Shown: positions 12,428 to 64,000, counted from the stretch's first letter. The stretch is DNA of 64,000 nt from an uncultured Methanosarcinales archaeon (GCA_964438385.1 CAYTKI010000011.1:48739-112738); one strand, 5' to 3'. Notes: a model not told the origin generated them from the letters alone. Program-made: numbers and translations.

Positions 12428-12532
12428 GTCCTATGGTCCCCCAATTCCGTTTAAATAAGTTTGCTCGGGAAAGCCGCCATTCAGTTGCCAATCACTCTCA
12501 TTCTTGCCTGGCAACCAACACCCGCTCCCCAA

Positions 12533-15814: not shown

Positions 15815-15880
15815 GTCTGGAGAGCCAGAAACGTTTAAATAGGTTTCTGAGGAAGCACTCTGCTTTAAGAGGGAAAATGG

Positions 15881-16099: not shown

Positions 16100-16103
16100 G
16101 GCC

Positions 16104-22829: not shown

Positions 22830-24277
22830 AACTGGAAATAAATGAAGGGTGTTTTTTCAAATACGCCAAAGAGCAAAATGAAGAGTATGGCAAGGGCAGA
22901 GACGCTCCATTTCACCACAAGAGATCCTTTGGAAAGAGAATCCTCATGGAGCATGTCTTTCTCCTCAAGCCATTCCCAGAACAGGAGCAGTGTGATGGTG
23001 CCGAAGGAGATGGCAAGGCCATACCAGCTCAGGCCGATAAATGTTCCCCCGACAGAGAGGCTCCAGCCGCTGAGAAGATGAGTGAATATGTAGTAGGCAT
23101 CTCCCAGGGAGTTCGAGCGGAAGAGGATGTTGGAAAGGGAGAACAAAAGGAAGGTGGCAATCACTTTCAGAAGCTGTGGCATGGTATCCCACTGCTTTCT
23201 TGCAAAATAGTAGAGGAAAATCAGCAATGCCATGCACCATCCATAGATGATAAAATTCCAGCTCGCGCCGTGCCACAGGCCAAGAAGCGGCCAGCCGATG
23301 AACAGGCAGAGTGTAAAGGCGAGTGTGTGGAGTATTTTCGCATCCTGCACGAATTCCCTAGATGTTTCCTTAAGCAAAAGATAGAGCGGGATGAAAACAT
23401 AATCCTGGAACCATTTAGTGAGGGAAATATGCCAGCGGTTCCAAAGCTCAGCGATGGACTGCGCAAAAAATGGTCTTCGGAAATTCTGAACTAGGCTATA
23501 GCCCATAATCCCTGCAGTCCCACGTGCGATGTCAGAATACCCGGAGAAATCGCAGTAGATCTGAATCGTGAAGGCAAAAGCCGCCAGAAGCAGCTCCATG
23601 CCATTGTAAGACGAGGGAGAACTGAAGACAGTGACGGTGAGCAGGGAGAGGCGATCCGCGATAACAACTTTCTTGAAAAAACCAAGGGCGATGAGCTGTA
23701 GGCTGCCAAAAATGCGGGAGTTGTCCCATTTCTTTTCCTCATAGAATTGCGGAAGTAGATGTCCAGCGCGCTCGATTGGCCCCGCGACAAGCTGTGGGAA
23801 GAACGCATGGTAGACTGCGTAAATTCCAAAGTGTCTTTCCGCAGTGATTTTTTTACGGTAGACATCGATATTGTAGCTCACGGCCTGGAAAGTGTAAAAT
23901 GAGATGCCGACAGGCAGGATGAGATTGAGGGCAAGGGGAGAGAACTGGATGCCGATGTGGGAGAAGAGTTCCCTGAGCGATTCGCCAAAGAAATTCGCGT
24001 ACTTGAAGGCAAAGAGCATGCCGAAGTTGCCAAATAGCCCAAACAGAAGCAATGTTTTGCGGGTGCGTGGATTTTCCGACTTCTCCATGAAGAGCGAGCA
24101 GAAGTAGCCAATGAGTGTGGAGAGGAAAAGAAGGATGCCATACTCAAGCTTCACGCTCATGTAGAAGTAATAGCTCGCGATGAGGAGCAGCATCCAGCGG
24201 AAGCGGTGGGGAATAGTGAAATGCAGTAGCACCACAATGGTAAAGAACACTAAAAATTCAAGGGAGTTGAAGAGCAT
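22826..24277 (-). CDS. MBOAT-family membrane O-acyltransferase (AlgI/DltB-like)
   Basis: 483 aa polytopic. FYTFQAVSYNIDVYRKK, QLVAGPIER, and a conserved His region, typical of AlgI/DltB. Confidence 0.85.
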   Translation of the reverse strand: MLFNSLEFLVFFTIVVLLHFTIPHRFRWMLLLIASYYFYMSVKLEYGILLFLSTLIGYFCSLFMEKSENPRTRKTLLLFGLFGNFGMLFAFKYANFFGESLRELFSHIGIQFSPLALNLILPVGISFYTFQAVSYNIDVYRKKITAERHFGIYAVYHAFFPQLVAGPIERAGHLLPQFYEEKKWDNSRIFGSLQLIALGFFKKVVIADRLSLLTVTVFSSPSSYNGMELLLAAFAFTIQIYCDFSGYSDIARGTAGIMGYSLVQNFRRPFFAQSIAELWNRWHISLTKWFQDYVFIPLYLLLKETSREFVQDAKILHTLAFTLCLFIGWPLLGLWHGASWNFIIYGWCMALLIFLYYFARKQWDTMPQLLKVIATFLLFSLSNILFRSNSLGDAYYIFTHLLSGWSLSVGGTFIGLSWYGLAISFGTITLLLFWEWLEEKDMLHEDSLSKGSLVVKWSVSALAILFILLFGVFEKTPFIYFQF

Positions 24278-44588: not shown

Positions 44589-45005
44589 GTGAATAGCTAC
44601 ACCTATGGGGAGATTGAAGTTGGGCAATCTGCGTCATTTGAAAAAACAATCACAAAAGAGGACATTCTTTTATTCTCAAAATTGACAGGGGACAAAAATC
44701 CGCTTCATGTGGATGAAGAGTACGCAAAGCAGACAAAATTCAAGAAACCAGTTGCATTCGGGCTCCTCATCAGTTCCCTGTGGTCTACAATTGCCGGAAT
44801 GCATCTTCCAGGGAAGCATTCGCTGATACTTTCTGTGCAGTCTAGTTTCAGAAAGCCCTGCTTCGTAGGGGATACCCTGACAGTAGAGGGTGTGGTGAGG
44901 CAGAAAGTGGATGTTGGAAGCATCCTCGTCCTGGGCCTCTCAGTGAAAAACCAGACTCGCGCGATTGTTGCTGATGGGGAGATGAAAGTGCAGGTGCTAA
45001 AGTGA
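44589..45005 (+). CDS. MaoC-like (R)-specific enoyl-thioester hydratase/dehydratase (hot-dog fold)
   Basis: 138 aa. LTGDKNPLHVDEEYA...FGLL is the MaoC hot-dog signature. Confidence 0.75.
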   Translation: MNSYTYGEIEVGQSASFEKTITKEDILLFSKLTGDKNPLHVDEEYAKQTKFKKPVAFGLLISSLWSTIAGMHLPGKHSLILSVQSSFRKPCFVGDTLTVEGVVRQKVDVGSILVLGLSVKNQTRAIVADGEMKVQVLK

Positions 45006-45709
45006 AGCAGGCAGTCATCCTTGGGATAAGCGGGGATCTTGGAAAAGCGATAGCGCGGATGCTGTTGAAAAAGGGGTATCGTATTCTGGGGACCTCCCAC
45101 ACCCATCAAGCGGAGGAGTTTGCAGGTAATGGGAATGTCGAGGTCGTTTCCCTCGACCTTTCCGACGCAAACCAGGTGGAAAAATTTTGCAGCCAGATTG
45201 GGAAGCTGGAGGGCATTGATTTCATGGTGAATACCATAGGAAGCTACACCATGGGCCGCTTTGAGCAGATCCCATTTGAGACATTCCAAAAAGATTTCAA
45301 CCTCAACGTGCTGCTTTATATTCAGGTGCTTCAGAAGGCATTTCCAAAATTCAGAAAAGATGCAAATCTCATCTTCATATTGACGGAGATGGTAGTTGGT
45401 GACCCGAGCTATTTTCTCACGCCTTACGTATCATCAAAGTACGCCCTCCTTGGGCTTATGAGGGCGCTCGCAGGAGAGCTGAAGCAGCGTGGCATTCGAG
45501 TAAATGGAGTCTCTCCGGGGATGATGGATACAAGATTCATAGCTTCAGTTCCGCGCATCGTAAAGGAGCAATACCTGAGAAATTCCCCCTTGGGTAAGTT
45601 TGTGGATCCAAAAGAAGTTGCCAATGTTATTGAGAATATCGTGGATGATCCTTCCATGAACGGAGAAAATATTCCTCTCTTGGGAAAGAAAATGCCGCAG
45701 GGAAAATGA
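45002..45709 (+). CDS. Short-chain dehydrogenase/reductase (SDR)
   Basis: AVILGISGDLGKAIA (TGxxxGxG-like), YVSSKYAL (YxxxK). 4-nt overlap with the MaoC gene. Confidence 0.75.
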   Translation: MKQAVILGISGDLGKAIARMLLKKGYRILGTSHTHQAEEFAGNGNVEVVSLDLSDANQVEKFCSQIGKLEGIDFMVNTIGSYTMGRFEQIPFETFQKDFNLNVLLYIQVLQKAFPKFRKDANLIFILTEMVVGDPSYFLTPYVSSKYALLGLMRALAGELKQRGIRVNGVSPGMMDTRFIASVPRIVKEQYLRNSPLGKFVDPKEVANVIENIVDDPSMNGENIPLLGKKMPQGK

Positions 45710-46041
45710 GGATTGGAATAGATATCGAGGAAGTGAAGCGTTTTGTGCTCAGTAGAAATCACCCTTTTATCAGGCATGCATTCACAAAAAAAGAAATGAG
45801 GTATGCGTTTTCAAGGAAAAATCCTGCAATGCACCTGTGCGGGTTCTTCTGCGCAAAGGAGGCGCTCATAAAGGCCCTCTGCCCTGCTTCGCTTCTTCTC
45901 AGGGAGATAGAGATTACGCACGGAAGGAATGATGAACCAAAGATGAGCATTCTCAAGAAAAGTTTAAAAATTCGGAAGGGGATTGATGTAAGCATCTCCC
46001 ACACGGAAAAATACGCAGTGGCAGTTGTGATGGGGAAGTGA
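45706..46041 (+). CDS. acpS: Holo-ACP synthase (4'-phosphopantetheinyl transferase, AcpS type)
   Basis: 111 aa. MRIGIDIEEVKRF...FTKKEMRY...FCAKEALIKAL...VSISHTEKYAVAVV. Classic AcpS blocks. Confidence 0.75.
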   Translation: MRIGIDIEEVKRFVLSRNHPFIRHAFTKKEMRYAFSRKNPAMHLCGFFCAKEALIKALCPASLLLREIEITHGRNDEPKMSILKKSLKIRKGIDVSISHTEKYAVAVVMGK

Positions 46042-46054
46042 GTGGGGAAGTCTC

Positions 46055-47758
46055 ATGAAAAAGATTAAGGTCGCGATTCTTTGCTCATACACCATCAACA
46101 ACCTTGTTCCTCCGCTAAAGGACGTTCTCTTGGAAAAGGGGTTTGATCCGGAGATCAGGTTTGGCGGGTATAACCAGTTTATCCAGGAACTGATGGATAA
46201 GTCCTCCTGGCTCGCAGATTTTAAGCCGGAAATCATTGTCGTTGCCCTCAGCGCAAGAACCTATCTTCAGGATCTTGAATATTATCTGTTGGATCTTTCA
46301 GAAACCGAGATAAATGGTCTCATTGATGAAAAATCCTCTTTTCTTCTCAGCGCAATTCAGGCATACCGGGAGCCGGCAAAGATTATCCTCACCACTTTAG
46401 ACTACCCCAATTACTCTCCGCTCGGCATAATGGACCTCATTTCTGACGTTGGGATGAAACATGGTATCGACCGATTCAATTATGCGCTCGTGTCATTCGC
46501 AAGGAAAAATCGCCAAGTTATCCTCATTGATTTTGATAAAGTGCTCTCTGGCATGGGAAAGGTGGAAGCGACCGACGAGAAGATGTATTATCTGGGAAAG
46601 CTTCTCCTACGCAATAATGCGGCAGCCGCCTTTGCTTGGGAGATTGCCGGCTGCATAGCGGCAACCTTTGGCCAGAGGAAGAAATGTATCGTTGTGGATC
46701 TTGATAATACCTTATGGGGAGGGGTGATTGGGGAGGATGGGGCAAATGGGATTGTGATTGGCGATGATGGGGTGGGCAGCGTCTATCGCGACATCCAAAG
46801 AATCCTTTTGAATTGGAAAAAATCCGGCGTGCTCCTTGCCATCGCCTCCAAGAATAACCCTGACGACGCCATCTCCGCGTTCAGGGAGAATGGGGCAATG
46901 GTGCTTAAGGAAGAGGATTTTGTGGCGACAAGGATCTGCTGGGAGAGCAAGTCAAAGGGGATCGCCTCCATCTCAGAGGAGCTCAATATCGGACTTGAGA
47001 GCTTTGTCTTTCTCGATGACAACCCTGCCGAGCGGCTGGAGGTGAGGACGCACCTTCCGATGGTTGAGGTCATTGATGTCCCGCAGGATATTGCCCTTCT
47101 TCCGGAAATGCTCAAGGGGCTCCGGCTCTTTTGGGCGCTCGCGCTCACAGAGGAGGATAAGCAGCGCCATGGGCTGTATATGCAGGAAAAAAGCAGGGCG
47201 GTGCTGAAGGAGAAAGTGTCTGTTGATGATTATCTTAGGGAGCTTGGCACATCAATAGTGGTGAAGAAAAATGATCTCTCCTCGCTTGAGCGGATAACGC
47301 AGCTCATCAACAAGACCAACCAATTCAATCTGCGCACCCAGCGCTACTCTCAGGAGCAGGTAAAAGCGCTTATGGAGTCAAAAAACAGCATGGTACTCTC
47401 GCTCCATGCTGCGGACAAATTCGGAGATCTTGGTCTCACCGGAATTATCATCATCAATAGGCAGAAAGAGAATGAATATTTTCTGGAAGGCCTTCTCATG
47501 AGCTGCAGGATTCTGGGGAGAAATATTGAGCGCCAGTTCTTCATCGAAGCGATAAAAGTGCTGAAAGGGGTGGACCCCTTGGCCATCCTGCATGCGGAAT
47601 ACGTCCCGACACAAAAGAACGGCATGATAAAGGATTTTTGCGCTCAGATGGGTTTTAAGATGATGGGGGAAGGGGATGGCAAACTATCATATTCCCTATC
47701 GCTTGGACAGTATCAGATTCACGATGTGCAGTCAATTGAGGTGAAACACTATGGATAA
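46055..47758 (+). CDS. FkbH-like HAD-superfamily (subfamily IIIC) enzyme; predicted (glyceryl-)acyl loader onto a carrier protein
   Basis: 567 aa. Central HAD core CIVVDLDNTLWGGVIGEDG...ASKNN...FLDDNP with a C-terminal FkbH-like region. Immediately upstream of an ACP gene, overlapping it by 8 nt. Confidence 0.65.
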   Translation: MKKIKVAILCSYTINNLVPPLKDVLLEKGFDPEIRFGGYNQFIQELMDKSSWLADFKPEIIVVALSARTYLQDLEYYLLDLSETEINGLIDEKSSFLLSAIQAYREPAKIILTTLDYPNYSPLGIMDLISDVGMKHGIDRFNYALVSFARKNRQVILIDFDKVLSGMGKVEATDEKMYYLGKLLLRNNAAAAFAWEIAGCIAATFGQRKKCIVVDLDNTLWGGVIGEDGANGIVIGDDGVGSVYRDIQRILLNWKKSGVLLAIASKNNPDDAISAFRENGAMVLKEEDFVATRICWESKSKGIASISEELNIGLESFVFLDDNPAERLEVRTHLPMVEVIDVPQDIALLPEMLKGLRLFWALALTEEDKQRHGLYMQEKSRAVLKEKVSVDDYLRELGTSIVVKKNDLSSLERITQLINKTNQFNLRTQRYSQEQVKALMESKNSMVLSLHAADKFGDLGLTGIIIINRQKENEYFLEGLLMSCRILGRNIERQFFIEAIKVLKGVDPLAILHAEYVPTQKNGMIKDFCAQMGFKMMGEGDGKLSYSLSLGQYQIHDVQSIEVKHYG

Positions 47759-47999
47759 GAACCTGGAAGAAAATGTAAGAAAGACAGTGGAAACAGTCAT
47801 GGGTGTTGATATCGGGGCTATGGACAGTGAAACTAAGTTTAGTAGCATCTCCGCATGGGATTCATTCAACAACCTCATGCTCATTTCCAAGTTTGAGGAG
47901 GAGTACAATGTGCGCTTCACCGCAGTAGAGATCGAGCAGACGCAGACAGTGGGCGATCTGCTTATCTTGATGGAGAGAAAAGTCGAAAAAGCGCAATAA
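47751..47999 (+). CDS. Acyl carrier protein (copy 2)
   Basis: 82 aa. SAWDSFNNLMLISKFEEEY is a DSL-type phosphopantetheine attachment site plus helix II. Homologous to the 15881..16099 ORF. Confidence 0.6.
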   Translation: MDKNLEENVRKTVETVMGVDIGAMDSETKFSSISAWDSFNNLMLISKFEEEYNVRFTAVEIEQTQTVGDLLILMERKVEKAQ

Positions 48000-56602: not shown

Positions 56603-56770
56603 GAAGTTGCCTGTTACTCATAATTTATTTTTAAGTCTATTGCATATAACGGTCCATAGAGAAAACGCGAAATGTTTTTAAACGAGGCGGCGTTCTTTGG
56701 GAAGGGTGAATGCGTGGATTCCATCGACAAATTCAAGGATTCAGAAGGGAGAATTAGCAGGGAAAATATC

Positions 56771-57211
56771 ATGAAGATTATCCCATACAACGAGCATTTC
56801 CTTTTCATAGATGAAGTGGTCTCTTTGGATAAGAAGAGGATTGTCGCAAGAAAGAAAATTACGGGAAAAGAAGATTTCCTCAAAGGTCATTTTGTGGATT
56901 TTCCAATTACCCCGGGGGCATTGATTGTCGAAGGGCTTGGCCAGGCAGCGACTCTACTCGCACGCTACAGTATTCCAAATCACCAGAAAAAAGATGTGCT
57001 CGCATACAAGATCCGCGATGCGAAATTCATGGCTCCGGTGCTTCCGGGCAGTGAGATGACCTATGAGGTGGTCTCGCAGGGGCAGATGGAGAAATTTGCC
57101 ATGATGCAGGGCAAGGTATTTGTGGATGGGAATCTCACTGCGGAAGCGTTCATGATGCTTGCGATAGTCGATCGTGATGCGTTTAGGGGTAAGCACTCCT
57201 CCGCGAAATAA
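56771..57211 (+). CDS. fabZ: 3-hydroxyacyl-thioester dehydratase (FabZ-like hot-dog fold)
   Basis: IIPYNEHFLFIDEVVSLD...GHFVDFPITPGALIVEGLGQAA matches the FabZ IPHRyPFLLiD...GHFPg.PvmPGvL..EamaQ block. Confidence 0.75.
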   Translation: MKIIPYNEHFLFIDEVVSLDKKRIVARKKITGKEDFLKGHFVDFPITPGALIVEGLGQAATLLARYSIPNHQKKDVLAYKIRDAKFMAPVLPGSEMTYEVVSQGQMEKFAMMQGKVFVDGNLTAEAFMMLAIVDRDAFRGKHSSAK

Positions 57212-57225
57212 AAGATTGTTCTTCC

Positions 57226-58350
57226 ATGATGCATGTAAAAGGAATTGGAATGACGAAATTTGGAATCCATAGTAAGACAACCCATGAGCTGTGCTATGAG
57301 GCGGCAATGGAGGCATTCGATGATGCAAATATAACTCCGGACCAGATAGATGCCGTTGTCATCTCCCGTAGTGATAGCGCAATTGATGGGGAGCGGCAGC
57401 GCCTCTTTCCCTCTCTTATCAGCAGCATCCTGCAGAAAGAGGGAATCCCCATGGTGCATGTGATTGCCGCGTGCGCGGGAGGCGGAGCTGCATTGTGGAA
57501 TGCAGTGCACTTGGATTATGGGAATGTACTTGTGCTTGGGGTTGAGAAGCTCACACCTCCTCCGACGCCGCAGGTGACTGAAGACCTCATGACTGCATCT
57601 GAGCACCTCTACGAGCAGTCAGAAGGGATGAATTTTCCAGCCCAGAATGCACTGATAGCGCAGCAGTACATGCGCAGGTATGGGGTTTCCACTGATGATC
57701 TTGCATTGGTTGCCCTAAAAAACCATGAAAATGCAAACCTTAACCCAAAAGCAAGATTTTACGGAAAAACTGTGACGCTCGCCATGATCAAAAAATCACC
57801 CATCATCTGCTCCCCCTTGCGCCTCTTTGACTGCAGTATCTCCGTGGATGGCGCGGCTGCCGTAATAGTCACCAAGGAAAAAACAGATATTGAAATCGCT
57901 GGATCTGCATTGTACGCTGATCGCCTTCCTGCCTTTGAAGCGCCGGATATGACCTCATGGGAAGGGACAAAACTTGCTGCGGAGCAGGCATATAGGGAAG
58001 CAGGAATCACTCCAAAGGATCTTGATTGTGTGGAATTGCACGACGCGTTTACTTCTGTTGAATTGATGGCGTATGAGGATCTTGGCTTGTGTGGAAAAGG
58101 CGAGGGGAAAAAACTCATCCGCAAAGGACATACAAAGCTCAATGGAGCGCTTCCAGTCAACATGTCTGGAGGCCTCAAGGCAAAAGGGCATCCCATTTCC
58201 GCGACAGGTATATCGCAAATTTATGAGATCGTAAAGCAGTTGCGCAATCAGGCAGGAAAACGCCAGGTGGATGGAGCGAAAATCGGAATCGCGCATAATG
58301 TGGGCGGCGTTGGCAGTTCAGTGACTGTCCATGTGCTCAAAAAAGTATAG
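57226..58350 (+). CDS. Archaeal-type thiolase (acetyl-CoA C-acyltransferase, SCP-x/thiolase fold)
   Basis: GIGMTKFG, active-site VIAACAGGG, C-terminal HNVGG. The family that partners DUF35 proteins. Confidence 0.8.
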   Translation: MMHVKGIGMTKFGIHSKTTHELCYEAAMEAFDDANITPDQIDAVVISRSDSAIDGERQRLFPSLISSILQKEGIPMVHVIAACAGGGAALWNAVHLDYGNVLVLGVEKLTPPPTPQVTEDLMTASEHLYEQSEGMNFPAQNALIAQQYMRRYGVSTDDLALVALKNHENANLNPKARFYGKTVTLAMIKKSPIICSPLRLFDCSISVDGAAAVIVTKEKTDIEIAGSALYADRLPAFEAPDMTSWEGTKLAAEQAYREAGITPKDLDCVELHDAFTSVELMAYEDLGLCGKGEGKKLIRKGHTKLNGALPVNMSGGLKAKGHPISATGISQIYEIVKQLRNQAGKRQVDGAKIGIAHNVGGVGSSVTVHVLKKV

Positions 58351-58363
58351 AAAATGAATGTAG

Positions 58364-59830
58364 GTGAATGACATGATTATCAGATGGATATGCGAGATAT
58401 GCAGTAAGAAATGGATATATCCCGTGCAGAAATGCCTCTATTGCAAAGGACCAATAGTAAAGCAGAAGGGCACAAAGGTGAAAATCATTGGCATCACCAA
58501 AGTGAATATCCCCTCACCAATGCACCCAATCATTCCCTATAATATTATCCTTCTCGAGGATGAGTTTGGCAACCGCATGCCTAAAAAAACAATGAAAGAA
58601 TACCACATTGGGGATGCCTACCAGCTCGAGCAGGCAAAGACAGATGGCGCAGTTATCATTTGCAAGGTAAAGTATGATATTGAGGAAGCATTGCAAGAAT
58701 CCCTTGGCCTTTTGAGATCAGTTGATTTGGCGCCGGATGATAAGGTGCTCATTAAGGTAAGTTGCATTGAGTCAGTATATCCATACCAGGCGGTAACGAC
58801 AAACCCCGTGCTTCTTGAATCCATCATCCATATTCTGAGGGGGAGGGGCATCTCTAATATTATTATTGGGGAGCAGGCAATGCTCGGTAATGACACCATG
58901 GACGCAGCTTCAAAGGCAGGAATCCTTGAAGTCTGCAAGAAGGCGGATATTGCATTCGTTGATTTAGGCAAGGCAGAGTATGTGGAGAAGAAGCATGGCA
59001 CAACAACCTTTAGCATTGCGAAAGATGCAGTGGAGAGAAAAATCATTGATGTGCCCGTCCTAAAGACCCATTCCCAACTTGGCGTTGCAGGGGCCATGGA
59101 GAATTTGCTTCGTGTATGCTCCGCAGAAACGCAGAAGAATATGTATGCTGAAGGCATTGAGAAATCACTTGCAAAACTTGCGCTGGTCGCAAGGCCCATA
59201 CTCATCATCGGAGATGCGACAAATGGGCTTCAGGGCAATGGCCCTACTTCCCTTGGCGAGCCGGCGTTTCTGAATATGCTGCTTGTGGGAAAAGACATTG
59301 TTTCAGTTGACCGAATATTTTCTGAGCTGGGGATGTTTTCCTTGCCGGAACATGTCAGGGAAGCCGGGATTCTTGGGGCTGGTGAATCTGATCTCAAGAA
59401 AATTGAAGTGGTAAATTGTGAAGTGAATGCGGCAAAGTACTCCCTCAAGAAACCGGAAAAAGTGGTAACAGCTCATCCCAACATCCGGCTGGTTGATGGC
59501 CAGGCAGATCCTTATGTGCTCAATACTGCACTCAGGATGGCGCAGAAGCTGGTTGGAATTGCCGGGGAAGAAGTGCATATCGTGGTGGGCTCCCATCTTT
59601 CATCGGAGATGGTTGAGGGCAAGCAGCGCTTGGTGCTATACGGCCGTGACGCCATCAGGAAGGGAAAGGAGATAGGTATCCAGGCGGTCGCTGAGCTTAC
59701 TGAAGAGATGCCGGATATCCAAAAAGTCGTGTTCTTGAAAAGCATACTTGAGAATCCAGACAAGAAGAAACTTGGTATCGCGGACGTCTTCAAGGCAAAG
59801 CTTGCGATGTTCTCGCAGAAAAAGAAATGA
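58364..59830 (+). CDS. Fusion protein: N-terminal DUF35 (Zn-ribbon + OB-fold) and C-terminal DUF362-like domain
   Basis: N-terminus CEICSKKWIYPVQKCLYCKG...KVKIIGITKV is the DUF35 rubredoxin-like ribbon plus OB fold. From ~aa 120, DDKVLIKVSCIESVYPYQAVTTNPVLLESIIHILRGRG fits the DUF362 kVlIKPN...tThP.vv.avv motif. 488 aa in total. Confidence 0.55.
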   Translation: MNDMIIRWICEICSKKWIYPVQKCLYCKGPIVKQKGTKVKIIGITKVNIPSPMHPIIPYNIILLEDEFGNRMPKKTMKEYHIGDAYQLEQAKTDGAVIICKVKYDIEEALQESLGLLRSVDLAPDDKVLIKVSCIESVYPYQAVTTNPVLLESIIHILRGRGISNIIIGEQAMLGNDTMDAASKAGILEVCKKADIAFVDLGKAEYVEKKHGTTTFSIAKDAVERKIIDVPVLKTHSQLGVAGAMENLLRVCSAETQKNMYAEGIEKSLAKLALVARPILIIGDATNGLQGNGPTSLGEPAFLNMLLVGKDIVSVDRIFSELGMFSLPEHVREAGILGAGESDLKKIEVVNCEVNAAKYSLKKPEKVVTAHPNIRLVDGQADPYVLNTALRMAQKLVGIAGEEVHIVVGSHLSSEMVEGKQRLVLYGRDAIRKGKEIGIQAVAELTEEMPDIQKVVFLKSILENPDKKKLGIADVFKAKLAMFSQKKK

Positions 59831-59867
59831 ACGTAGTCCCAAGATCCGGGCTGAATGGTATAAAATC

Positions 59868-60602
59868 ATGCTGACTGGAAAAATTGCATTGGTCACCGGC
59901 TCCTCACGGGGCATTGGAAAGGCAATTGCCCTTGAGCTTGCAAAGAAAGGGGCAGATGTCGCAATTAATTATAGCAGTGATGAGAATGGCGCGCGGGCAG
60001 TTGCCGAGGAAATTGAAAAGATTGGGAGAAAGGCGATTGTGGTCAAGGCGAATGTTTCCAACACAGAGCAGACAAAAAAGATGGTGCAGGAAATATGTGA
60101 GAAACTTGGAAAAATCGACTTGCTGGTCAATAATGCGGGAATCGCACGCGATAAGACCTTAAAGAACATGAGTGTAGAGAAATGGAACTTAGTGATTGAC
60201 ACCAACCTCACTGGCACCTTCAATGTCACCAAGAGCGTGCTTGAAGTTATGCCTGAGGGCGGGAGCATTGTCAACATTTCTTCTGTAGTGGGGCTCAACG
60301 GCAATTTCGGGCAGACAAACTATTCTGCATCCAAGGCAGGCATAATCGGATTCACCAAATCATTGGCAAAAGAGGTGGCGAAGAGAAGGATAAGGGTGAA
60401 CGCAGTCGCTCCTGGATTTATCGAGACAGAGATGACAAAAGGCATCCCGTTCATCAGGAAGCTCATCGTGAAGAGATTCATTCCGCTTGGGCGGTTGGGA
60501 GCAGCAGAGGATGTTGCGCACTTAGTGGCATTTTTACTTTCTGAGGATGCAGGATACATCAGCGGCCAAGTCGTGAGAATAGATGGGGGGTTGATGTTCT
60601 GA
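59868..60602 (+). CDS. fabG: 3-oxoacyl-thioester reductase (FabG-type SDR)
   Basis: KIALVTGSSRGIGKAIA...NNAG...SSVVG...YSASKAG...APGFIETEM. Classical FabG motifs. Confidence 0.85.
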   Translation: MLTGKIALVTGSSRGIGKAIALELAKKGADVAINYSSDENGARAVAEEIEKIGRKAIVVKANVSNTEQTKKMVQEICEKLGKIDLLVNNAGIARDKTLKNMSVEKWNLVIDTNLTGTFNVTKSVLEVMPEGGSIVNISSVVGLNGNFGQTNYSASKAGIIGFTKSLAKEVAKRRIRVNAVAPGFIETEMTKGIPFIRKLIVKRFIPLGRLGAAEDVAHLVAFLLSEDAGYISGQVVRIDGGLMF

Positions 60603-61735
60603 TGTTTGTTAGGGGAGTTGGCATGACCTCATTTGATTTTGATCAAACACCCTCATTTGAGAGAATTTCACAGTGCGTGTCTGAAGCGCTTGAGGATGCG
60701 GAACTTGGGCTTGAGCAGCTTGATGCAGTTTTCATATCAAACACAGAGACAGGAGGGAATAGCGAGCGCCAGCGCCACATGTCTCCTCTCGTAAGCAGTC
60801 TGTTTGAGAGGAGGATCCCAATAATCAATCTCCCATGGGGATGTGGTGGTGGTGGGGTTGCTTTATGGGATGCGCTGCGGTTCTTGATGGCCACGCCAAA
60901 GGAAAATGTTCTCGTTATCGGCTGCGATAAAGTGGTGGGAAACACTTCAGAGCGGCTCACAGATGAGATCCTAATGGGCGGTGAGAGAAAATATGAGCAG
61001 ATTGAGGGAGTTGTCTTTCCCGCCCAGAACGCGCTTGTGGCGCAGCAGTACATGCTCAAGTTCAATGCTGTGGAGGGGGATTTTGCGCTTGTTGCCCTGA
61101 AAAATCACGAGAATGGGTTTCTCAATCCGAAAGCAAGATTTTACAATAAAAAAGTAACTCTTGAGATGATTGAGAAGTCCCAGGTTGTTGCCTCTCCTCT
61201 TCGCCTCTTTGACTGCAGTATCTCGTGTAATGGGGCTGCTGCTGTAGTGGTAAGTAGGGAAAAAAGTGATATAGAGATTGTGGGGAGTAGCGTCGCAACA
61301 AGCAATCTCTCAACATTTGAGAGAAAAAATATGCTCTCTTGGGAATCAACAAAGATTGCCGCGAAGAACGCGTACTCACAGGCAGGGATTAGCCATGAGG
61401 AAGTGGATATTGCGGAGCTTCATGATGCTTTTACTCCTGTTGAAATCATTTCGTATGAGGATCTTGGATTTTGCGGGCCTGGAGAAGGCATTCAGCTTAT
61501 CAGGGAAGGCGCGACAAAGCTGAACGGAAAACTGCCGGTAAACACTTCAGGCGGGCTCAAGGCGCGTGGGCATCCTATTAGTCCGACCGGCATCGCGCAG
61601 ATATATGAGATTGCATGCCAGATGAGAGGAGATGCCGGCAAGAGGCAGATTGAGAAGCCAACCTATGGGCTGGCCCAGAATATTGGAGGGGCGGGAAGCA
61701 TGGCTGCCGTGCACATCCTGAAAAACAATGGCTAA
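60602..61735 (+). CDS. Thiolase-fold protein, paralog of 57226..58350
   Basis: GVGMTSFD, WGCGGGG (Cys retained), QNIGGAG. ~40-45% identical to the upstream thiolase by eye. Confidence 0.7.
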   Translation: MFVRGVGMTSFDFDQTPSFERISQCVSEALEDAELGLEQLDAVFISNTETGGNSERQRHMSPLVSSLFERRIPIINLPWGCGGGGVALWDALRFLMATPKENVLVIGCDKVVGNTSERLTDEILMGGERKYEQIEGVVFPAQNALVAQQYMLKFNAVEGDFALVALKNHENGFLNPKARFYNKKVTLEMIEKSQVVASPLRLFDCSISCNGAAAVVVSREKSDIEIVGSSVATSNLSTFERKNMLSWESTKIAAKNAYSQAGISHEEVDIAELHDAFTPVEIISYEDLGFCGPGEGIQLIREGATKLNGKLPVNTSGGLKARGHPISPTGIAQIYEIACQMRGDAGKRQIEKPTYGLAQNIGGAGSMAAVHILKNNG

Positions 61736-62804
61736 AGGAATGCTTTCCGGGATACGGGTACTTGACTGTTCTTCTCTTATTCCGGGGCCGTTTTGCGCGA
61801 TGATGCTTGCTGATCTTGGTGCGGATGTCACCAAGGTGGAGAGTCCAAAGGGTGATGGTTTACGCTCCTTTGGGACAATCAATGGGGTGAGTCCTTATTT
61901 TGTGGTCATAAACAGGGGCAAGAAAATCGTGGTGCTCAACCTCAAGACAAAGGAAGGAAAAGGCAAGCTTCATCAGCTCGTTAAGGGAACAGATGTCATA
62001 ATTATCGGGACAAGACCGATGAAAGCAGCAGATCTTGGCCTTGCATACTCACAAATAAGGAAAATGAACAAGAGGATTGTGTATTGCTCAATCACTGGCT
62101 ATGGGATGCGTGGAAGAAAGAGCAAATTGGCAGGACATGACATAAATTATCTCGCCCATAGCGGAATGCTCCCTGCGCTTTCAGGAAATTCAGTTTCAGT
62201 ACCAGGGGTGCAGCATGCGGATCTTGCCGCAGGAACGCTTGCGTGTTCTGTGATACTCGCGGCGCTTTTCTCCAGGCAAAAAACAGGGAAAGGTGTATGT
62301 CTGGACCTTAGTATGGCGGATGCCACTTCCTATTTTTTTGGGATGTATCTTTCGCATGACTCTCTTGCCGGAATGGATAGATTTCTTGCAGGAGCATGCC
62401 CATGCTACAATGTGTACAAGACCAAGGATCATAAGTGGGTTGCTCTCGGTGCCGTAGAGGAAAAATTTTGGAAAGCGTGGTGCGGTGCGTCAAAAATGAT
62501 TTCATTGGAAAAGAAGCAATGGTCGATGGAGAAAGATGTAATTGAGAAAGTGCGTGATGTGTTCATGAACAAGACTGCAAAAGAGTGGGTGATGCTCGGT
62601 AATCTTCATGATTTTTGCTGCGAAGAAGTTCTGGATGCAAAAAGCGCCGTCTCCTTGGGCATGGAGCAAAAAAAATGGGAGGAGGTGCAAAGAATACCTG
62701 TTCCTAGTCTGGGATTTGGTGTTTTTGGGATTCCTGTTTCACAACCATCATGGAAAAAAAAGCCAACTTTCCTCAACTCAGGAATAGAGCGGGAGGGTAA
62801 GTGA
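61728..62804 (+). CDS. Family III CoA-transferase (CaiB/BaiF / alpha-methylacyl-CoA racemase family)
   Basis: GIRVLDCSSLIPGPFCAMMLADLGADVTKVE is the hallmark N-terminal block of CoA-transferase family III. Confidence 0.85.
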   Translation: MAKGMLSGIRVLDCSSLIPGPFCAMMLADLGADVTKVESPKGDGLRSFGTINGVSPYFVVINRGKKIVVLNLKTKEGKGKLHQLVKGTDVIIIGTRPMKAADLGLAYSQIRKMNKRIVYCSITGYGMRGRKSKLAGHDINYLAHSGMLPALSGNSVSVPGVQHADLAAGTLACSVILAALFSRQKTGKGVCLDLSMADATSYFFGMYLSHDSLAGMDRFLAGACPCYNVYKTKDHKWVALGAVEEKFWKAWCGASKMISLEKKQWSMEKDVIEKVRDVFMNKTAKEWVMLGNLHDFCCEEVLDAKSAVSLGMEQKKWEEVQRIPVPSLGFGVFGIPVSQPSWKKKPTFLNSGIEREGK

Positions 62805-62809
62805 CATTA

Positions 62810-64000
62810 ATGGAAATCAAAAGACATTCCTGGAAACCGACAGCGCCAATCTCAAAAGGAGCGAGCGCGTACCATGATGCAGTCTGCAACGCCAAGTATT
62901 ATGTGACTATTCTTGATGAGCTCATGATGAACGCTGCTCAGAAGATCGTGGAAGGTCAGATCGTTGTTGATTTTGGCGCAGGAACAGGAGTTTCTGCTCT
63001 TCGGCTCTTAAAGCAGGCATCCGATCATTTTGATTTGTGGATGGTGGACAATTCTCCTGCGTGGCTCGGCAAGGCCTATGAGATTCTGCACGATCGCAAG
63101 GGCACTGATTTTTTTATCGTTGGGAAAAAAGGAGAGACTCATGCGACGCTCTCCCAGACCATTGGGGAAGGTATTGCGGACCACGTGGTCTGCGCAAATA
63201 CCATCCACCTCATTCCAGATATTGCAGAGGTATTCGAGGGGGTCTCATGCGCGCTTAAGGAGGGGGGGATGTTTTTTGTCGAGAGTGGAAATGTCCTCTA
63301 TGACGATACTCCAAAAGGAGCGCTTCTGGTCGATGACACCGTCAAGCGGGTACATGATATCGCCCTGGACATGGTGAGGTATAATCCTTCATTCTCATCC
63401 TATAAGGCGGATCTCGATGCGGATATCAGGAAGTATGCGGCTCAGAGAAAATTTGTCTTTCCTGATCCTCGGCCGTTAAGCTTCTATTGTGAAATGCTCC
63501 AAAAGTCCGGGTTTGTAGTTGAGCGCTCCTATGCAAAGCTTTTCAAGGTTGAATATGGGGATTGGCTTACATTTCTCCGCGTTAAGCGGCTGCAGGCAGG
63601 AATCCTTCCCGAAATCGGCGGCAATGATCCATCCAATAAGGAAGAGGAGGATCGTGACAATCTCATTTCATTGGCCACCCATAAGCTCTTTGACGAATTG
63701 CGCGCTGAGAATCCGCTTGCTGACAAGCAGGGGTTCACTATTGAGGTAGTGTATATCATCGCCCACAAAAAAGAGCGCACGCTTGCCGGAAAAAAAGCTC
63801 TGGTCACTGGCGCATCACGCGGCATTGGAAGGGCAATCGCACTTGAATTGGCTTCCGAAGGGGCAGAGATCATCATTAACTACAATAGCAGCAAAGAGAA
63901 GGCGCAGGAAGTTGTGGAGGAGATTGCTTCGATTGGCTCGCGCGGAATCGCGGTCAAAGCGGATGTAGCAATCCATTCTGATGTGACGCATCTTGCTGCG
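62810..64000 (+). CDS. Didomain protein: class I SAM methyltransferase-like domain fused to an SDR (FabG-like ketoreductase) domain; 3' end beyond window
   Basis: Hand translation from the ATG at 62810 is open through 64000 with no stop, checked codon by codon. VVDFGAGTGVSALRL (MTase motif I) is followed ~330 codons later, in the same frame, by KKALVTGASRGIGRAIALELASEGAEIIINYNSS (SDR TGxxxGxG). Missing from the ORF track because it runs off the edge. Confidence 0.65.
   Translation, partial: MEIKRHSWKPTAPISKGASAYHDAVCNAKYYVTILDELMMNAAQKIVEGQIVVDFGAGTGVSALRLLKQASDHFDLWMVDNSPAWLGKAYEILHDRKGTDFFIVGKKGETHATLSQTIGEGIADHVVCANTIHLIPDIAEVFEGVSCALKEGGMFFVESGNVLYDDTPKGALLVDDTVKRVHDIALDMVRYNPSFSSYKADLDADIRKYAAQRKFVFPDPRPLSFYCEMLQKSGFVVERSYAKLFKVEYGDWLTFLRVKRLQAGILPEIGGNDPSNKEEEDRDNLISLATHKLFDELRAENPLADKQGFTIEVVYIIAHKKERTLAGKKALVTGASRGIGRAIALELASEGAEIIINYNSSKEKAQEVVEEIASIGSRGIAVKADVAIHSDVTHLAA

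What the first reader, a model, noticed from the sequence alone, without database searches (positions are those of the whole stretch)
56672..64000. Non-canonical thioester chain-building cassette: FabZ + thiolase + DUF35-DUF362 fusion + FabG + thiolase paralog + CoA-transferase + MTase-KR didomain
Seven co-oriented genes with tiny or negative spacers encode every activity of a condensation / ketoreduction / dehydration cycle, but with unusual parts. Condensation would use an archaeal-type thiolase and a DUF35 partner, the pairing known from the archaeal thiolase/HMG-CoA-synthase/DUF35 complex, rather than a KAS. Ketoreduction is FabG, and there are two thiolase-fold paralogs. Dehydration is a FabZ hot-dog enzyme. 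No enoyl reductase is present in the window, and the cluster continues past the right edge. A family III CoA-transferase (acyl-CoA exchange or racemisation) and a methyltransferase-SDR didomain protein complete it. Two ACP-like carriers and an AcpS elsewhere in the window show phosphopantetheine chemistry is available. This combination is not a textbook FAS, PKS, beta-oxidation or mevalonate module. Sitting at the end of a glycan island, it most plausibly makes an unusual, possibly alpha-methylated, 3-hydroxy/enoyl acyl group for a lipid or glycan decoration.
Basis: partly seen in the sequence, partly recalled or inferred. Interest (0 to 1): 0.85.

Follow-up and report, generated by a model that had tools for sequence, protein, structure and literature searches.

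The report
ACP-free thiolase-based fatty-acid synthesis cassette
This seven-gene operon of a tiny DPANN archaeon (Woesearchaeota) is most likely the core of a fatty-acid synthase built from thiolases instead of the usual ketosynthase and carrier protein, and relatives of it in about 60 DPANN and CPR genomes sit beside the genes that turn fatty acids into bacterial-type membrane lipids.

Summary
Seven co-oriented, nearly abutting genes encode a FabZ-like dehydratase, thiolase A, a three-domain fusion, FabG, thiolase B, an alpha-methylacyl-CoA-racemase-like family-III CoA-transferase, and a methyltransferase-FabG fusion. The fusion is a DUF35-like domain, a DUF362 (LarA-fold) domain and a flavodoxin-like domain.

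The last gene ends 513 nt past the window. TRAM, ribosomal S2 and an acyl-CoA desaturase follow. There is no enoyl reductase, HMG-CoA synthase or FadB/FadE.

The link to the neighbouring glycan island is not supported. In 61 related loci, almost all Woesearchaeota, the cassette lies between acyl-CoA carboxylase genes (BC, BCCP, CT, BirA, BioY) and bacterial-type GpsA plus two PlsC acyltransferases. No ACP or KAS was found in these neighbourhoods.

Sister lineages supply the missing reductase with Bcd/EtfAB-type genes. CPR bacteria labelled Nealsonbacteria use FabK-like genes, sometimes fused to FabZ.

Best reading (about 0.65): a CoA-based, ACP-independent fatty-acid synthase feeding glycerol-3-phosphate ester lipids. 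This is a variant of the thiolase/DUF35 complex shown in Sulfolobus in 2024.

Unresolved:
- the reductase in this lineage
- the extender unit (acetyl- or malonyl-CoA)
- the roles of DUF362, the methyltransferase and the racemase-like protein

The parts
56672..57211 (+). FabZ-like 3-hydroxyacyl-thioester dehydratase (hot-dog fold)
   Evidence: PF07977 3.2e-21. NCBIfam FabZ scores are 104 and 98 bits, below the cut-offs of 113 and 155. The sequence carries GHFVDFPITPGALIVEGLGQ, which matches the FabZ His/Glu active-site motif as I recall it. A FabZ-like gene lies just upstream of the cassette's thiolase/fusion genes in 40 of 40 related loci with >=8 kb of upstream flank.
57226..58350 (+). Thiolase A (archaeal/SCP2-type, DUF35-associated class)
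   Evidence: Thiolase_C_1 9e-51, PRK06064 369 bits. Best PDB hits are 7yvy, the archaeal mevalonate thiolase 6esq_A, BbsB and PhlC. The Cys nucleophile (AACAGGG), HDAF (HDxF motif) and GHP are present in this protein and in all 87 orthologues examined.
58373..59830 (+). Three-domain fusion protein: DUF35-like Zn-ribbon/OB domain (about 58373-58690), DUF362 / LarA-fold domain (about 58745-59320) and a flavodoxin-like C-terminal domain (about 59471-59827)
59868..60602 (+). FabG 3-ketoacyl-thioester reductase (SDR)
   Evidence: TIGR01830 310.6 bits against a 297.75 cut-off. The S...YxxxK motif and TGSSRGIG are visible in the sequence. That this Gly-motif arginine indicates NADP(H) preference is my inference from SDR coenzyme rules.
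60602..61735 (+). Thiolase B, a paralogue 53% identical to thiolase A
   Evidence: Thiolase_C_1 2e-46, PRK06064 335 bits. It has the same Cys / HDAF / GHP motifs.
61728..62804 (+). Family-III CoA-transferase-fold protein, alpha-methylacyl-CoA racemase-like
   Evidence: PF02515 4e-79. The top PDB hits are alpha-methylacyl-CoA racemases (E about 1e-39), only just ahead of formyl-CoA transferase and SUGCT (about 1e-37). The AGHDINY and A-D motifs are conserved in all 13 orthologues. Its 358 aa matches the racemases (360-365 aa).
62810..64000 (+). Methyltransferase-FabG fusion. It is cut by the window end; the full protein is 567 aa and ends 513 nt further on

Best explanation
The cassette is the core of a carrier-protein-independent, CoA-thioester-based fatty-acid synthase of a Woesearchaeote (DPANN archaeon). 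The steps below are marked shown or inferred.

1. Condensation (inferred). Two archaeal-type thiolases, A and B, perform the Claisen condensation that a KAS performs in bacteria. They keep the Cys nucleophile, the HDxF motif and GHP. They are probably docked on the DUF35-like N-domain of the fusion protein, as thiolases are in the known DUF35 complexes.
2. Extender unit (inferred, unresolved). It is acetyl-CoA or, more likely, malonyl-CoA made by the acyl-CoA carboxylase that flanks the cassette in most relatives.
3. Ketoreduction (gene shown, cofactor inferred). FabG, and/or the FabG domain fused to the methyltransferase, reduces 3-ketoacyl-CoA using NADPH.
4. Dehydration (gene shown). The FabZ-like protein dehydrates the product to enoyl-CoA.
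5. Enoyl reduction (unresolved here). It is not encoded in this cassette. Sister lineages have Bcd/EtfAB-type or FabK-type genes at the equivalent place. In this lineage the reductase is elsewhere in the genome, or the step is performed by the LarA-like DUF362 + C-terminal module.
6. Use of the product (inferred from relatives). Acyl-CoAs are esterified to sn-glycerol-3-phosphate by the GpsA + 2 PlsC genes that neighbour the cassette in relatives. In this genome they can be desaturated by the acyl-CoA desaturase 1.6 kb downstream.
7. Accessory module (speculative). The racemase-like protein and the methyltransferase-KR are lineage-specific and may yield methyl-branched or otherwise methylated chains.
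For: Gene content:
- Domain assignments.
- DUF35 and LarA folds of the fusion.
- Thiolase catalytic motifs are conserved in 87 of 87 orthologues. They match the CxS / HDxF / GHx signature of archaeal DUF35-associated thiolases (PMC12960953).

Synteny in 61 loci from species-representative genomes:
- Of 40 loci with >=8 kb upstream, 33 have biotin carboxylase, 33 have BirA and 29 have carboxyltransferase.
- Of 32 loci with >=8 kb downstream, 22 have GpsA and 26 have PlsC.
- NCBIfam confirms GpsA (404 bits, cut-off 257), the PlsC domain (103.4, cut-off 102.95) and a PCC/mmdA-type carboxyltransferase (717 bits).
- The 71%-identical relative L067 has BC next to the same seven genes.

The missing reductase is supplied by different genes elsewhere:
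- ACAD + EtfB + EtfA between FabG and PlsC in seven lineages. The ACAD's best match is acryloyl-CoA reductase AcrC at 523 bits.
- FabK/NMO-type ER, sometimes fused to FabZ, in L066, L069 (labelled Nealsonbacteria) and L070. These also carry a thiolase (HDAF), the short fusion, FabG, PlsC, BC, BCCP, BirA and CT.

Other points:
- No ACP was detected in any of the 66 related loci. The search did find the window's own ACP as a positive control.
- An experimental precedent exists: the S. acidocaldarius KT/DUF35 + FabG-type reductase + dehydratase complex with a separate ER (bioRxiv 10.1101/2024.07.05.601840).
- Probst et al. 2020 reported FAS-II homologues without ACP machinery in Nealsonbacteria and raised an ACP-independent pathway (PMC7242380).
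Against: - The window and the 3.3 kb beyond it hold no ER, carboxylase, GpsA or PlsC. For this genome the link to membrane lipids is by homology of context only.
- Thiolases are reversible. HDxF thiolases include degradative enzymes such as BbsB and a Pseudomonas ACAT that only cleaves.
- A racemase-like protein, SCP2-type thiolases, and ACAD/ETF or a crotonase in some relatives are also the parts list of branched-chain beta-oxidation.
- FabZ scores lie below the NCBIfam cut-offs.
- An ACP and an AcpS do exist elsewhere in the window, so ACP-dependence is not excluded genome-wide.
- DUF35 homology is structural only. The Pfam HMMs miss it and hhalign is weak (E 0.004, probability 8%).
- Complex formation, substrate, cofactor and product are all untested.
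Confidence: 0.65

Rival explanations
1. A degradative pathway: beta-oxidation of 2-methyl-branched or isoprenoid-derived acyl-CoAs through (R)-3-hydroxy intermediates, analogous to peroxisomal pristanic-acid oxidation. In that scheme a racemase sets the 2-methyl configuration, an ACAD (elsewhere) oxidises, the FabZ-like protein hydrates, FabG oxidises and SCP2-type thiolases cleave. The carboxylase of relatives would then dispose of propionyl-CoA.
For: - The CoA-transferase-fold protein is racemase-like.
- The thiolases are SCP2/archaeal type.
- ACAD + ETF occur in seven sister lineages, and a crotonase in another clade.
- The carboxyltransferase is of the propionyl-CoA carboxylase / methylmalonyl-CoA decarboxylase type.
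- HDxF thiolases can be purely thiolytic.
Against: - The conserved neighbours are anabolic: GpsA, two PlsC, BirA and BioY.
- The CPR versions use FabK-type reductases, some fused to FabZ. These are biosynthetic enzymes that cannot oxidise acyl-CoA.
- Both SDRs score as FabG equivalogs and carry the NADP-type TGxxRGIG motif. The cofactor preference is my inference.
- The ACAD's best match is a reductive acryloyl-CoA reductase.
- The racemase-like gene is absent from most lineages that keep the cassette (5 of 32 loci with enough downstream flank at my threshold).
Confidence: 0.13
2. A short-chain fermentation route: pyruvate to acetyl-CoA, acetoacetyl-CoA, (R)-3-hydroxybutyryl-CoA, crotonyl-CoA and butyryl-CoA. 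It would serve redox balance or energy conservation, with the CoA-transferase-fold protein releasing the acid, rather than long-chain lipid synthesis.
For: In five to seven sister lineages, 2-oxoacid:ferredoxin oxidoreductase subunits and Bcd/EtfAB-type genes are interleaved with the thiolase, FabG and FabZ genes. One EtfA has an N-terminal ferredoxin domain, as I recall bifurcating ETFs do. Woesearchaeota are described as fermenters (PMC5994134).
Against: An ATP-consuming acyl-CoA carboxylase with BirA/BioY, plus GpsA, PlsC and (in this genome) a long-chain acyl-CoA-type desaturase, make no sense for butyrate fermentation. The window lineage has no OFOR or Bcd/Etf nearby.
Confidence: 0.07
3. 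One reading: a specialised-metabolite module making an unusual (methylated, hydroxy/enoyl or polyene) acyl group that decorates a glycan or lipid, functionally tied to the adjacent glycan island.
For: - The cassette lies at the end of a 55-kb glycan island.
- There is no ER in the lineages that have the methyltransferase: 26 loci have the MT, 8 have an ER and none has both. Iterative KS-KR-DH cycles without an ER would give polyenes.
- FabZ also hits ApeI-like models in precomputed Pfam.
- The MT fold resembles small-molecule MTs, including one encoded in an anammox FASII cluster.
Against: Glycan genes are not conserved neighbours in any of the 61 related loci. The cassette sits in a housekeeping and lipid context (S2, TRAM, LigT, carboxylase, GpsA, PlsC) across species-level diversity. 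It is too widespread and too syntenic for a strain-level decoration.
Confidence: 0.1
4. The archaeal mevalonate entry complex (thiolase / HMG-CoA synthase / DUF35), with the second thiolase standing in for HMGCS.
For: Two thiolase-fold genes flank a DUF35-like domain, the same layout as the thiolase/HMGCS/DUF35 operon. The thiolases are related to the M. thermolithotrophicus enzyme (E 2e-56).
Against: Thiolase B is a true thiolase paralogue (53% identical to A), not an HMGCS. There is no HMGCS in the window or downstream. Five relatives carry a separate canonical HMGCS + thiolase-like + free 131-aa DUF35 operon, only 29-36% identical, next to the cassette.
Confidence: 0.02

Closest known systems
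Sulfolobus acidocaldarius 'archaeal fatty acid synthase complex' (Saci_1121/1120 ketothiolase/DUF35 + Saci_1104 FabG-type reductase + Saci_1085 dehydratase, with separate ER Saci_1115; bioRxiv 10.1101/2024.07.05.601840)
   Same: Both are CoA-based with no ACP or KAS. A thiolase paired with a DUF35 module acts as the condensing unit. Both use an NADPH FabG-type SDR and an (R)-specific hot-dog dehydratase. The ER is not part of the core unit.
   Different: - The dehydratase here is FabZ-type, not MaoC-type.
- DUF35 is highly divergent and fused to a LarA-fold DUF362 domain.
- There are two thiolase paralogues.
- There is no MDR-type ER.
- Extra racemase-like and methyltransferase-KR genes are present.
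- Relatives show tight synteny with acyl-CoA carboxylase and G3P-lipid genes.
'Near-complete FAS-II without ACP machinery' noted in Nealsonbacteria (CPR) by Probst et al. 2020 (PMC7242380), and 'bacterial fatty acid synthesis genes' noted in Woesearchaeota (Castelle 2021 PMC8204110; Zhang 2024 PMC10936187)
   Same: Probably the same gene set seen from KEGG-style annotation (FabG, FabZ, FabI/K, carboxylase, PlsY/PlsC, GpsA). L069 (labelled Nealsonbacteria) carries the homologous thiolase, short fusion, FabG, FabZ-FabK, PlsC and carboxylase.
   Different: In the passages I read, those papers name no condensing enzyme and do not mention the thiolase or the DUF35-DUF362 fusion. The window's archaeal version also adds a second thiolase, the long fusion, the racemase-like protein and the MT-KR, and it lacks FabK.
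Archaeal acetoacetyl-CoA thiolase / HMG-CoA synthase / DUF35 complex (PDB 6ESQ/6ET9)
   Same: Same thiolase class (E 2e-56) and a DUF35-fold partner encoded next to it. The layout is two thiolase-superfamily genes around DUF35.
   Different: There is no HMGCS. DUF35 is fused rather than free-standing. The thiolase motif is HDAF rather than HDCF. The pathway context is FabG/FabZ, not mevalonate.
Bacterial type II fatty-acid synthesis
   Same: FabG (equivalog-level score), a FabZ-like dehydratase, FabK-type ER in the CPR relatives, a carboxylase upstream and PlsC downstream.
   Different: The neighbourhood has no ACP, FabD or KAS (FabH/B/F). Thiolases take the condensing role.
Other DUF35-organised thiolase-fold complexes: BbsAB benzoylsuccinyl-CoA thiolase, Ltp2-ChsH2(DUF35) steroid aldolase, PhlACB/MucABC Friedel-Crafts acylases
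   Different: Different chemistry and context. PhlC and MucB have lost the HDxF motif, which is intact here.
LarA superfamily (nickel-pincer-nucleotide 2-hydroxyacid racemases; Pfam clan CL0471)
   Different: Sequence identity is only 13-18%. No histidine is invariant in the DUF362 part of the 40-sequence alignment, whereas LarA (as I recall) needs catalytic and Ni-binding histidines. The cofactor and reaction are unknown.
Peroxisomal branched-chain beta-oxidation (AMACR + D-bifunctional protein + SCPx thiolase)
   Same: A racemase-like protein, an (R)-specific hot-dog enzyme, an SDR and an SCP2-type thiolase.
   Different: The direction is probably opposite, given the NADP-type FabG, the carboxylase, and the GpsA/PlsC context.

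Membership tests
Thiolase/DUF35-organised archaeal FAS (S. acidocaldarius type) | Ketothiolase encoded next to, and complexed with, a DUF35 protein | tested here: inconclusive
   Thiolases flank a DUF35-fold domain. The Pfam DUF35 HMMs do not hit it and hhalign is weak. Complex formation cannot be tested here.
Thiolase/DUF35-organised archaeal FAS (S. acidocaldarius type) | NADPH-dependent, (R)-specific FabG-type ketoacyl-CoA reductase | tested here: met
   Two FabG equivalog-level domains (310.6 and 315.6 bits against a 297.75 cut-off). Cofactor and stereochemistry are inferred from motifs only.
Thiolase/DUF35-organised archaeal FAS (S. acidocaldarius type) | MaoC-type (R)-hydroxyacyl-CoA dehydratase | tested here: not met
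   The dehydratase is FabA/FabZ family (PF07977 3e-21). MaoC scores only 0.006, below the cut-off.
Thiolase/DUF35-organised archaeal FAS (S. acidocaldarius type) | MDR-type NADPH enoyl-CoA reductase in the gene cluster | tested here: not met
   No ER-type domain was found in the cassette, in the 3.3 kb downstream, or in the 30 other window ORFs scanned. Relatives use ACAD/Etf or FabK instead.
Bacterial type II FAS | Acyl carrier protein with FabD/AcpS handling all intermediates | tested here: inconclusive
   phmmer with AcpP found no ACP in the cassette or in the 66 related loci, while it did find the positive control. One ACP and one AcpS exist 9-11 kb upstream in a FkbH module. The rest of the genome was not seen.
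Bacterial type II FAS | Decarboxylating ketoacyl-ACP synthase (FabH/FabB/FabF) | tested here: not met
   Both condensing-enzyme candidates are thiolase family (Thiolase_C_1 about 1e-50). KAS models give only marginal sub-threshold hits. No KAS appears in the precomputed Pfam lists of L002, L004, L067, L069 or L070.
Bacterial type II FAS | FabG, FabZ and an enoyl reductase (FabI/K/L/V) | tested here: inconclusive
   FabG is met. FabZ falls just below the curated cut-offs (104 against 113). No ER is present here, but FabK-type ER occurs in the CPR relatives.
Archaeal mevalonate entry complex (thiolase/HMGCS/DUF35) | HMG-CoA synthase subunit | tested here: not met
   There is no HMGCS domain in any cassette gene. 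In relatives HMGCS lies in a separate operon.
Beta-oxidation (FadA/FadB/FadE) | Crotonase/3-hydroxyacyl-CoA dehydrogenase (FadB type) and acyl-CoA dehydrogenase in the cluster | tested here: not met
   None is found in the window or downstream. ACAD + ETF occur in seven sister lineages and ECH in one clade.
Alpha-methylacyl-CoA racemase (within family III CoA-transferases) | CoA_transf_3 fold with the His126/Asp156 acid-base pair (M. tuberculosis MCR numbering, from my knowledge of the family) | tested here: inconclusive
   The fold is met (4e-79). Racemases are the top PDB hits, but by only about 8 bits over true transferases. The aligned His-Asp and Asp are conserved in 13 of 13 orthologues. 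The Asp is shared with CoA-transferases, so activity cannot be decided.
LarA / nickel-pincer racemases | LarA fold plus conserved catalytic and Ni/NPN-binding His and Lys residues | tested here: not met
DUF362 (PF04015) | Full-length match to the family model above the gathering score | tested here: met
   113.5 bits against a cut-off of 24, model positions 1-198 of 200.

The most novel reading that the evidence does not exclude
CPR bacteria and DPANN archaea are the two ultra-small radiations said to be unable to make their own lipids. On this reading they share a KAS-free, ACP-free fatty-acid synthase whose hub is a DUF35-LarA-fold fusion protein found nowhere else.

In the Woesearchaeal version seen here:
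- The two-domain LarA-like module would itself supply the missing hydride-transfer step (enoyl reduction) with a bound nicotinamide-type cofactor.
- The methyltransferase-KR plus the racemase-like protein would make methyl-branched, isoprenoid-mimicking acyl chains.

The result would be an archaeon with self-made bacterial-type ester membranes.
Probability: 0.15. Interest if true: 0.9.

Novelty: new variant of a known kind. Interest (0 to 1): 0.7.

Why it matters
DPANN archaea and CPR bacteria are widely assumed to scavenge lipids because no known fatty-acid pathway is found in their genomes. Yet CPR cells contain fatty-acid lipids, and Probst et al. 2020 left open whether an ACP-independent route exists (PMC7242380).

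This cassette names concrete candidates for the missing condensing machinery: HDxF thiolases docked on a DUF35-DUF362 fusion. It is conserved next to carboxylase, GpsA and PlsC genes across many species.

If it works as proposed:
- Some Woesearchaeota would make bacterial-type ester lipids themselves. That bears on the 'lipid divide' and on how dependent these organisms really are on hosts.
- The thiolase/DUF35 fatty-acid synthase principle, shown so far only in Sulfolobus, would extend to a second and very different architecture.
- DUF362 would gain its first functional context.

The enzymes are small and soluble-looking, so the question can be tested directly by reconstitution.

Tried and rejected
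Searches that found nothing or were unavailable:
- Exact look-up of the CoA-transferase protein found nothing. The fusion protein's database twin P0001 gave the extending contig instead.
- tRNA and Rfam scans of the window were empty.
- A profile search of PDB sequences with the fusion alignment gave no hit at E<=10.
- Pfam at E<=10 gave no DUF35 hit for the N-terminus and nothing credible for the C-terminal domain.
- hhalign of the N-domain against the free DUF35 proteins of related genomes was weak: E 0.004, probability 8%. The alignment is in register (Zn ribbon, then PY..LL.DE.G), so I lean on fold evidence.
- The literature search for PDB entry 7YVY, a plasmid megablast and the last CPR literature search were uninformative.
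- The afdb50 fold library was unavailable.

Ideas dropped or downgraded:
- HDAF instead of HDCF as proof of a KAS-like Cys-His-His decarboxylative mechanism. The motif is described as HDxF, with only the His shown to be essential (PMC12960953). Malonyl-CoA use now rests on carboxylase synteny alone.
- The second SDR as the missing enoyl reductase. This was prompted by a FabL hit on its truncated N-terminus. The full-length domain is a FabG equivalog with YxxxK and is 59% identical to FabG.
- Split thiolase genes in many groundwater MAGs as programmed frameshifting. The breaks lie at different positions. They probably reflect assembly trouble caused by near-identical stretches shared by the two paralogues.

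Full report
**Observation**

The + strand from 56672 to the window end carries seven genes, with spacers from -8 to +37 nt. Profile searches confirm them:
- FabZ-like dehydratase, 56672-57211: PF07977 3e-21. The FabZ NCBIfam models score 104 and 98 bits, just under their cut-offs.
- Thiolase A, 57226-58350.
- A 485-488-aa protein with a full-length DUF362 match (1.7e-32), 58373-59830.
- FabG, 59868-60602: TIGR01830 310.6 bits against a 297.75 cut-off.
- Thiolase B, 60602-61735: 53% identical to thiolase A.
- Family-III CoA-transferase-fold protein, 61728-62804.
- Methyltransferase + SDR protein, running off the window at 64000.

A Logan contig, L001, matches the window with 1 mismatch in 7667 nt and extends 3.3 kb further. 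The last gene is 567 aa and ends 513 nt past the window. Its C-terminal domain is a second FabG equivalog (315.6 bits). A TRAM-domain gene, archaeal-size ribosomal protein S2 and a fatty-acid desaturase with three His boxes follow. There is no enoyl reductase, HMG-CoA synthase, FadB or FadE there.

No ER-type domain was found in the 30 other window ORFs I scanned. Those ORFs confirm that the rest of the window is a glycan island: GT2, GT4, GT9, epimerases, a flippase, MBOAT with SGNH proteins, and methyltransferases.

They sit in a separate FkbH-MaoC-SDR module. The other small ORF has no Pfam hit.

**The fusion protein**

Pfam does not see DUF35 at the N-terminus, even at E<=10. A profile of 40 homologues finds nothing in PDB sequences.

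A confident AlphaFold model (pLDDT 87, pTM 0.87) resolves three parts:
- Residues from about 370 to 488 form a flavodoxin-like domain. The Foldseek alignments span 450-520 columns, which suggests that DUF362 plus this domain together mimic the two-domain LarA.

No histidine is invariant in the DUF362 part of the alignment, so a LarA-type nickel-pincer site is not evident.

A profile of the N-domain finds only 120 clusters among 1.84 billion representative proteins. Nearly all hits lie at residues 1-115 of proteins of 335-370 aa (short form, no C-terminal domain) or 460-495 aa (long form). This divergent DUF35 therefore seems to exist only as the fusion.

**The thiolases**

Both are archaeal/SCP2-type. 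Their best solved relatives are 7yvy, the mevalonate thiolase 6esq_A, BbsB and PhlC.

All 87 orthologues I extracted keep the Cys nucleophile (xxCxGGG), HDAF and GHP. That is the CxS / HDxF / GHx signature of DUF35-associated archaeal thiolases, in which the His is essential (PMC12960953). They are therefore predicted to be catalytically competent.

I first read Ala-for-Cys in HDxF as evidence for a decarboxylative, KAS-like mechanism. I withdrew that because the 'x' position is described as variable.

**Context in relatives**

The fusion has more than 300 homologues. Almost all are labelled Woesearchaeota or Nanoarchaeota.

A scan of GTDB species-representative genomes returned 61 loci. tblastn mapping of 22 reference proteins shows a conserved neighbourhood:

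carboxyltransferase - BCCP - (BioY) - BirA - biotin carboxylase | FabZ - thiolase - fusion - (FabG) - thiolase - (racemase-like, or a crotonase + dihydrolipoyl dehydrogenase on the other strand) - methyltransferase - FabG (fused or split) - TRAM - LigT - S2 | GpsA - PlsC - PlsC

Counts:

| Loci considered | Feature | Loci with it |
|---|---|---|
| 40 with >=8 kb upstream | FabZ | 40 |
| | biotin carboxylase | 33 |
| | BirA | 33 |
| | carboxyltransferase | 29 |
| 32 with >=8 kb downstream | PlsC | 26 |
| | GpsA | 22 |
| | S2 | 21 |

NCBIfam confirms GpsA, the PlsC domain and a PCC/mmdA-type carboxyltransferase. The 71%-identical relative L067 has biotin carboxylase directly upstream of the same seven genes. 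No ACP is found in any locus, although the same search recovers the window's own ACP as a positive control.

Five relatives carry, separately, a canonical HMGCS + thiolase-like + free 131-aa DUF35 operon. This disposes of the mevalonate reading.

**The missing reductase**

- Seven lineages with the short fusion have acyl-CoA dehydrogenase + EtfB + EtfA between FabG and PlsC. The ACAD's best NCBIfam match is the reductive acryloyl-CoA reductase AcrC. Five to six of them also have 2-oxoacid:ferredoxin oxidoreductase subunits in the cluster.
- More distant short-form loci have one thiolase (51-52% identical to thiolase B, with HDAF), the short fusion, FabG, FabZ (fused to a FabK/NMO-type ER in L066 and L069), a free FabK-like gene, PlsC, BC, BCCP, BirA, CT, and in L069 also PlsY. 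These are L066, L069 (labelled Candidatus Nealsonbacteria, CPR) and L070.
- ER genes and the methyltransferase never co-occur: 26 loci have the MT, 8 have an ER and none has both.
- ER genes go with the short fusion: long & ER 1, long & no ER 22, short & ER 7, short & no ER 6.

These counts are not phylogenetically independent. They still suggest that the C-terminal domain and/or the MT module are linked to how the enoyl step is handled in the window's lineage.

**Interpretation**

The best-supported reading is a CoA-based, ACP- and KAS-independent fatty-acid synthase:
- Condensation by thiolases organised by a DUF35 module.
- Ketoreduction by FabG.
- Dehydration by FabZ.
- Enoyl reduction by a variable, non-orthologous ER.
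- A supply of malonyl-CoA from the neighbouring carboxylase (inferred).
- Delivery of acyl-CoA to G3P by PlsC.

The principle has an experimental precedent in S. acidocaldarius. There KT/DUF35, a FabG-type reductase and a dehydratase form a complex that drives the unfavourable condensation, and the ER is separate.

What is shown here is gene content, fold, motif conservation and synteny. Complex formation, direction, extender unit, chain length and the ER of this lineage are inferred or open.

**Accessory genes**

The CoA-transferase-fold protein is racemase-like:
- Racemases are its top PDB hits, though only about 8 bits ahead of true transferases.
- AGHD[IL]N[YF] and A-D are conserved in 13 of 13 orthologues.
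- Its 358 aa matches the racemases.

The methyltransferase has intact SAM-binding motifs and many invariant polar residues. Its fold does not discriminate between C-, O-, N- and S-methylation. An alpha-methyl or branched-chain product is therefore possible but untested. In many lineages the only ketoreductase is the one next to or fused with the methyltransferase, so that pair is old and central rather than a late add-on.

**Rivals**

- Degradative branched-chain beta-oxidation (0.13). The racemase-like protein, SCP2-type thiolases, ACAD/ETF and the PCC-type carboxyltransferase fit it. The anabolic neighbours, the FabK-type ERs in the CPR versions and the NADP-type FabG signatures argue against it.
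- Butyrate-type fermentation (0.07). The OFOR and Bcd/Etf interleaving fits it. The carboxylase, GpsA/PlsC and desaturase do not.
Only the local position in this one genome fits it.
- The mevalonate entry complex (0.02). Effectively excluded.

**Novelty**

Fragments of this were known:
- GpsA and PlsC in Woesearchaeota (PMC6431249).
- 'Bacterial fatty acid synthesis genes' in Woesearchaeota (PMC8204110).
- FabG/FabI/FabZ in DPANN MAGs (PMC10936187).
- FAS-II homologues without ACP machinery in Nealsonbacteria, with an explicit open question about an ACP-independent route (PMC7242380).

Recent work still states that these DPANN cannot make lipid building blocks (PMC11868695). None of the 14 papers that mention DUF362 concerns this system. 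I found no description of the thiolase + DUF35-DUF362 hub.

I therefore class it as a new variant of a known kind: the thiolase/DUF35 archaeal FAS. It has unusual parts, and it is distributed across both DPANN and CPR.

Noticed in passing
L001 9757-10932 (66090-67265 in window numbering, just past the window end): A 391-aa fatty-acid desaturase (PF00487 7e-22) with three His boxes (HRLYAH, HRLHH, HNYHH) follows ribosomal S2. An O2-dependent acyl-CoA-type desaturase in a DPANN archaeon fits the idea that this organism handles long acyl chains. tblastn found it in none of the other loci.
   Followed up: partly
L027, L035, L044, L025, L030, L060 (thiolase genes either side of the fusion gene): In several genomes the two thiolase paralogues are 95-100% identical over their last ~115 residues but only 61-79% identical elsewhere. 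This points to gene conversion. In the window the corresponding figures are 63% and 49%.
   Followed up: partly
L002, L004, L010, L022, L026, L028, L034 (thiolase genes): Thiolase genes are split or frameshifted at different positions in many groundwater MAGs. This is more likely assembly error at near-identical paralogue stretches than programmed recoding.
   Followed up: partly
L028 17562-18674, L033 14439-15593, L044 9810-10937, L062 14269-15519: The thiolase-like genes of the separate HMGCS/thiolase/DUF35 operons in these Woesearchaeota have Asp where the nucleophilic Cys should be (GDASG, GGDSSG). If so, they are probably not active thiolases. That raises the question of which enzyme makes acetoacetyl-CoA for HMGCS.
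   Followed up: no
L066 12250-16061; L069 12395-16032: The distant (CPR-type) versions of the cassette carry a CMAS-family (cyclopropane-fatty-acid-synthase-like) methyltransferase, a FabZ fused to a FabK/PfaD-like enoyl reductase, and a second FabK-like gene.
   Followed up: partly
L070 18588-21038; L069 5002-5496: Next to the CPR-type cassette lie genes usually tied to archaeal or ether lipids: a geranylgeranyl-reductase-like gene, a polyprenyl synthase, PcrB/GGGPS-like and CarS-like genes. Bacterial FakA/DegV and PlsY are there too. This looks like a mixed lipid-gene neighbourhood.
   Followed up: no
window 11348-17432: A 2-oxoacid dehydrogenase set is embedded in the glycan island: an E2 with a lipoyl domain (Pfam), an E3-like gene 37% identical to the dihydrolipoyl dehydrogenase that sits inside the cassette in other Woesearchaeota, and probable E1 alpha/beta. 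It is a possible acetyl-CoA source.
   Followed up: partly
window 44589-47999: A separate module of MaoC dehydratase, SDR, AcpS, FkbH-like protein and ACP. As I recall, this is typical of glyceryl- or hydroxyacyl-ACP units used in glycan or polyketide decoration. It is unrelated to the cassette by synteny.
   Followed up: partly
window 12533-13669, 17568-18596, 19694-20851, 22826-24277: Three SGNH/AlgX-like proteins and an MBOAT suggest O-acylation of a surface polysaccharide in this archaeon.
   Followed up: no
Alignment A1 columns 401-452 (fusion C-terminal domain), e.g. P0088-P0120: One subgroup of long fusion proteins has CPxC plus a third Cys in the C-terminal domain. These are absent from the window's protein (QADPYVLN). 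The domain resembles the Fe-S-binding fold of NiFe-hydrogenase small subunits and NuoB, so some members may bind a metal cluster.
   Followed up: no
window 56625-56655: The 69-nt gap upstream of the FabZ-like gene is AT-rich and has TTTAAG and ATATAA motifs 20-45 nt before the ATG. This could be an archaeal TATA box with a short leader. It was not evaluated statistically.
   Followed up: no
L064, L066 and the 'binchicken' loci (record titles): Several loci carry implausible taxonomic labels. Examples are 'uncultured Methanosarcinales' for Woesearchaeota-like contigs, a 4.3-kb 'Nitrospinota' contig 70% identical to the window's fusion, and 85%-identical proteins labelled Parcubacteria in one case and Pacearchaeota in another. 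Taxon labels for this family need care.
   Followed up: no
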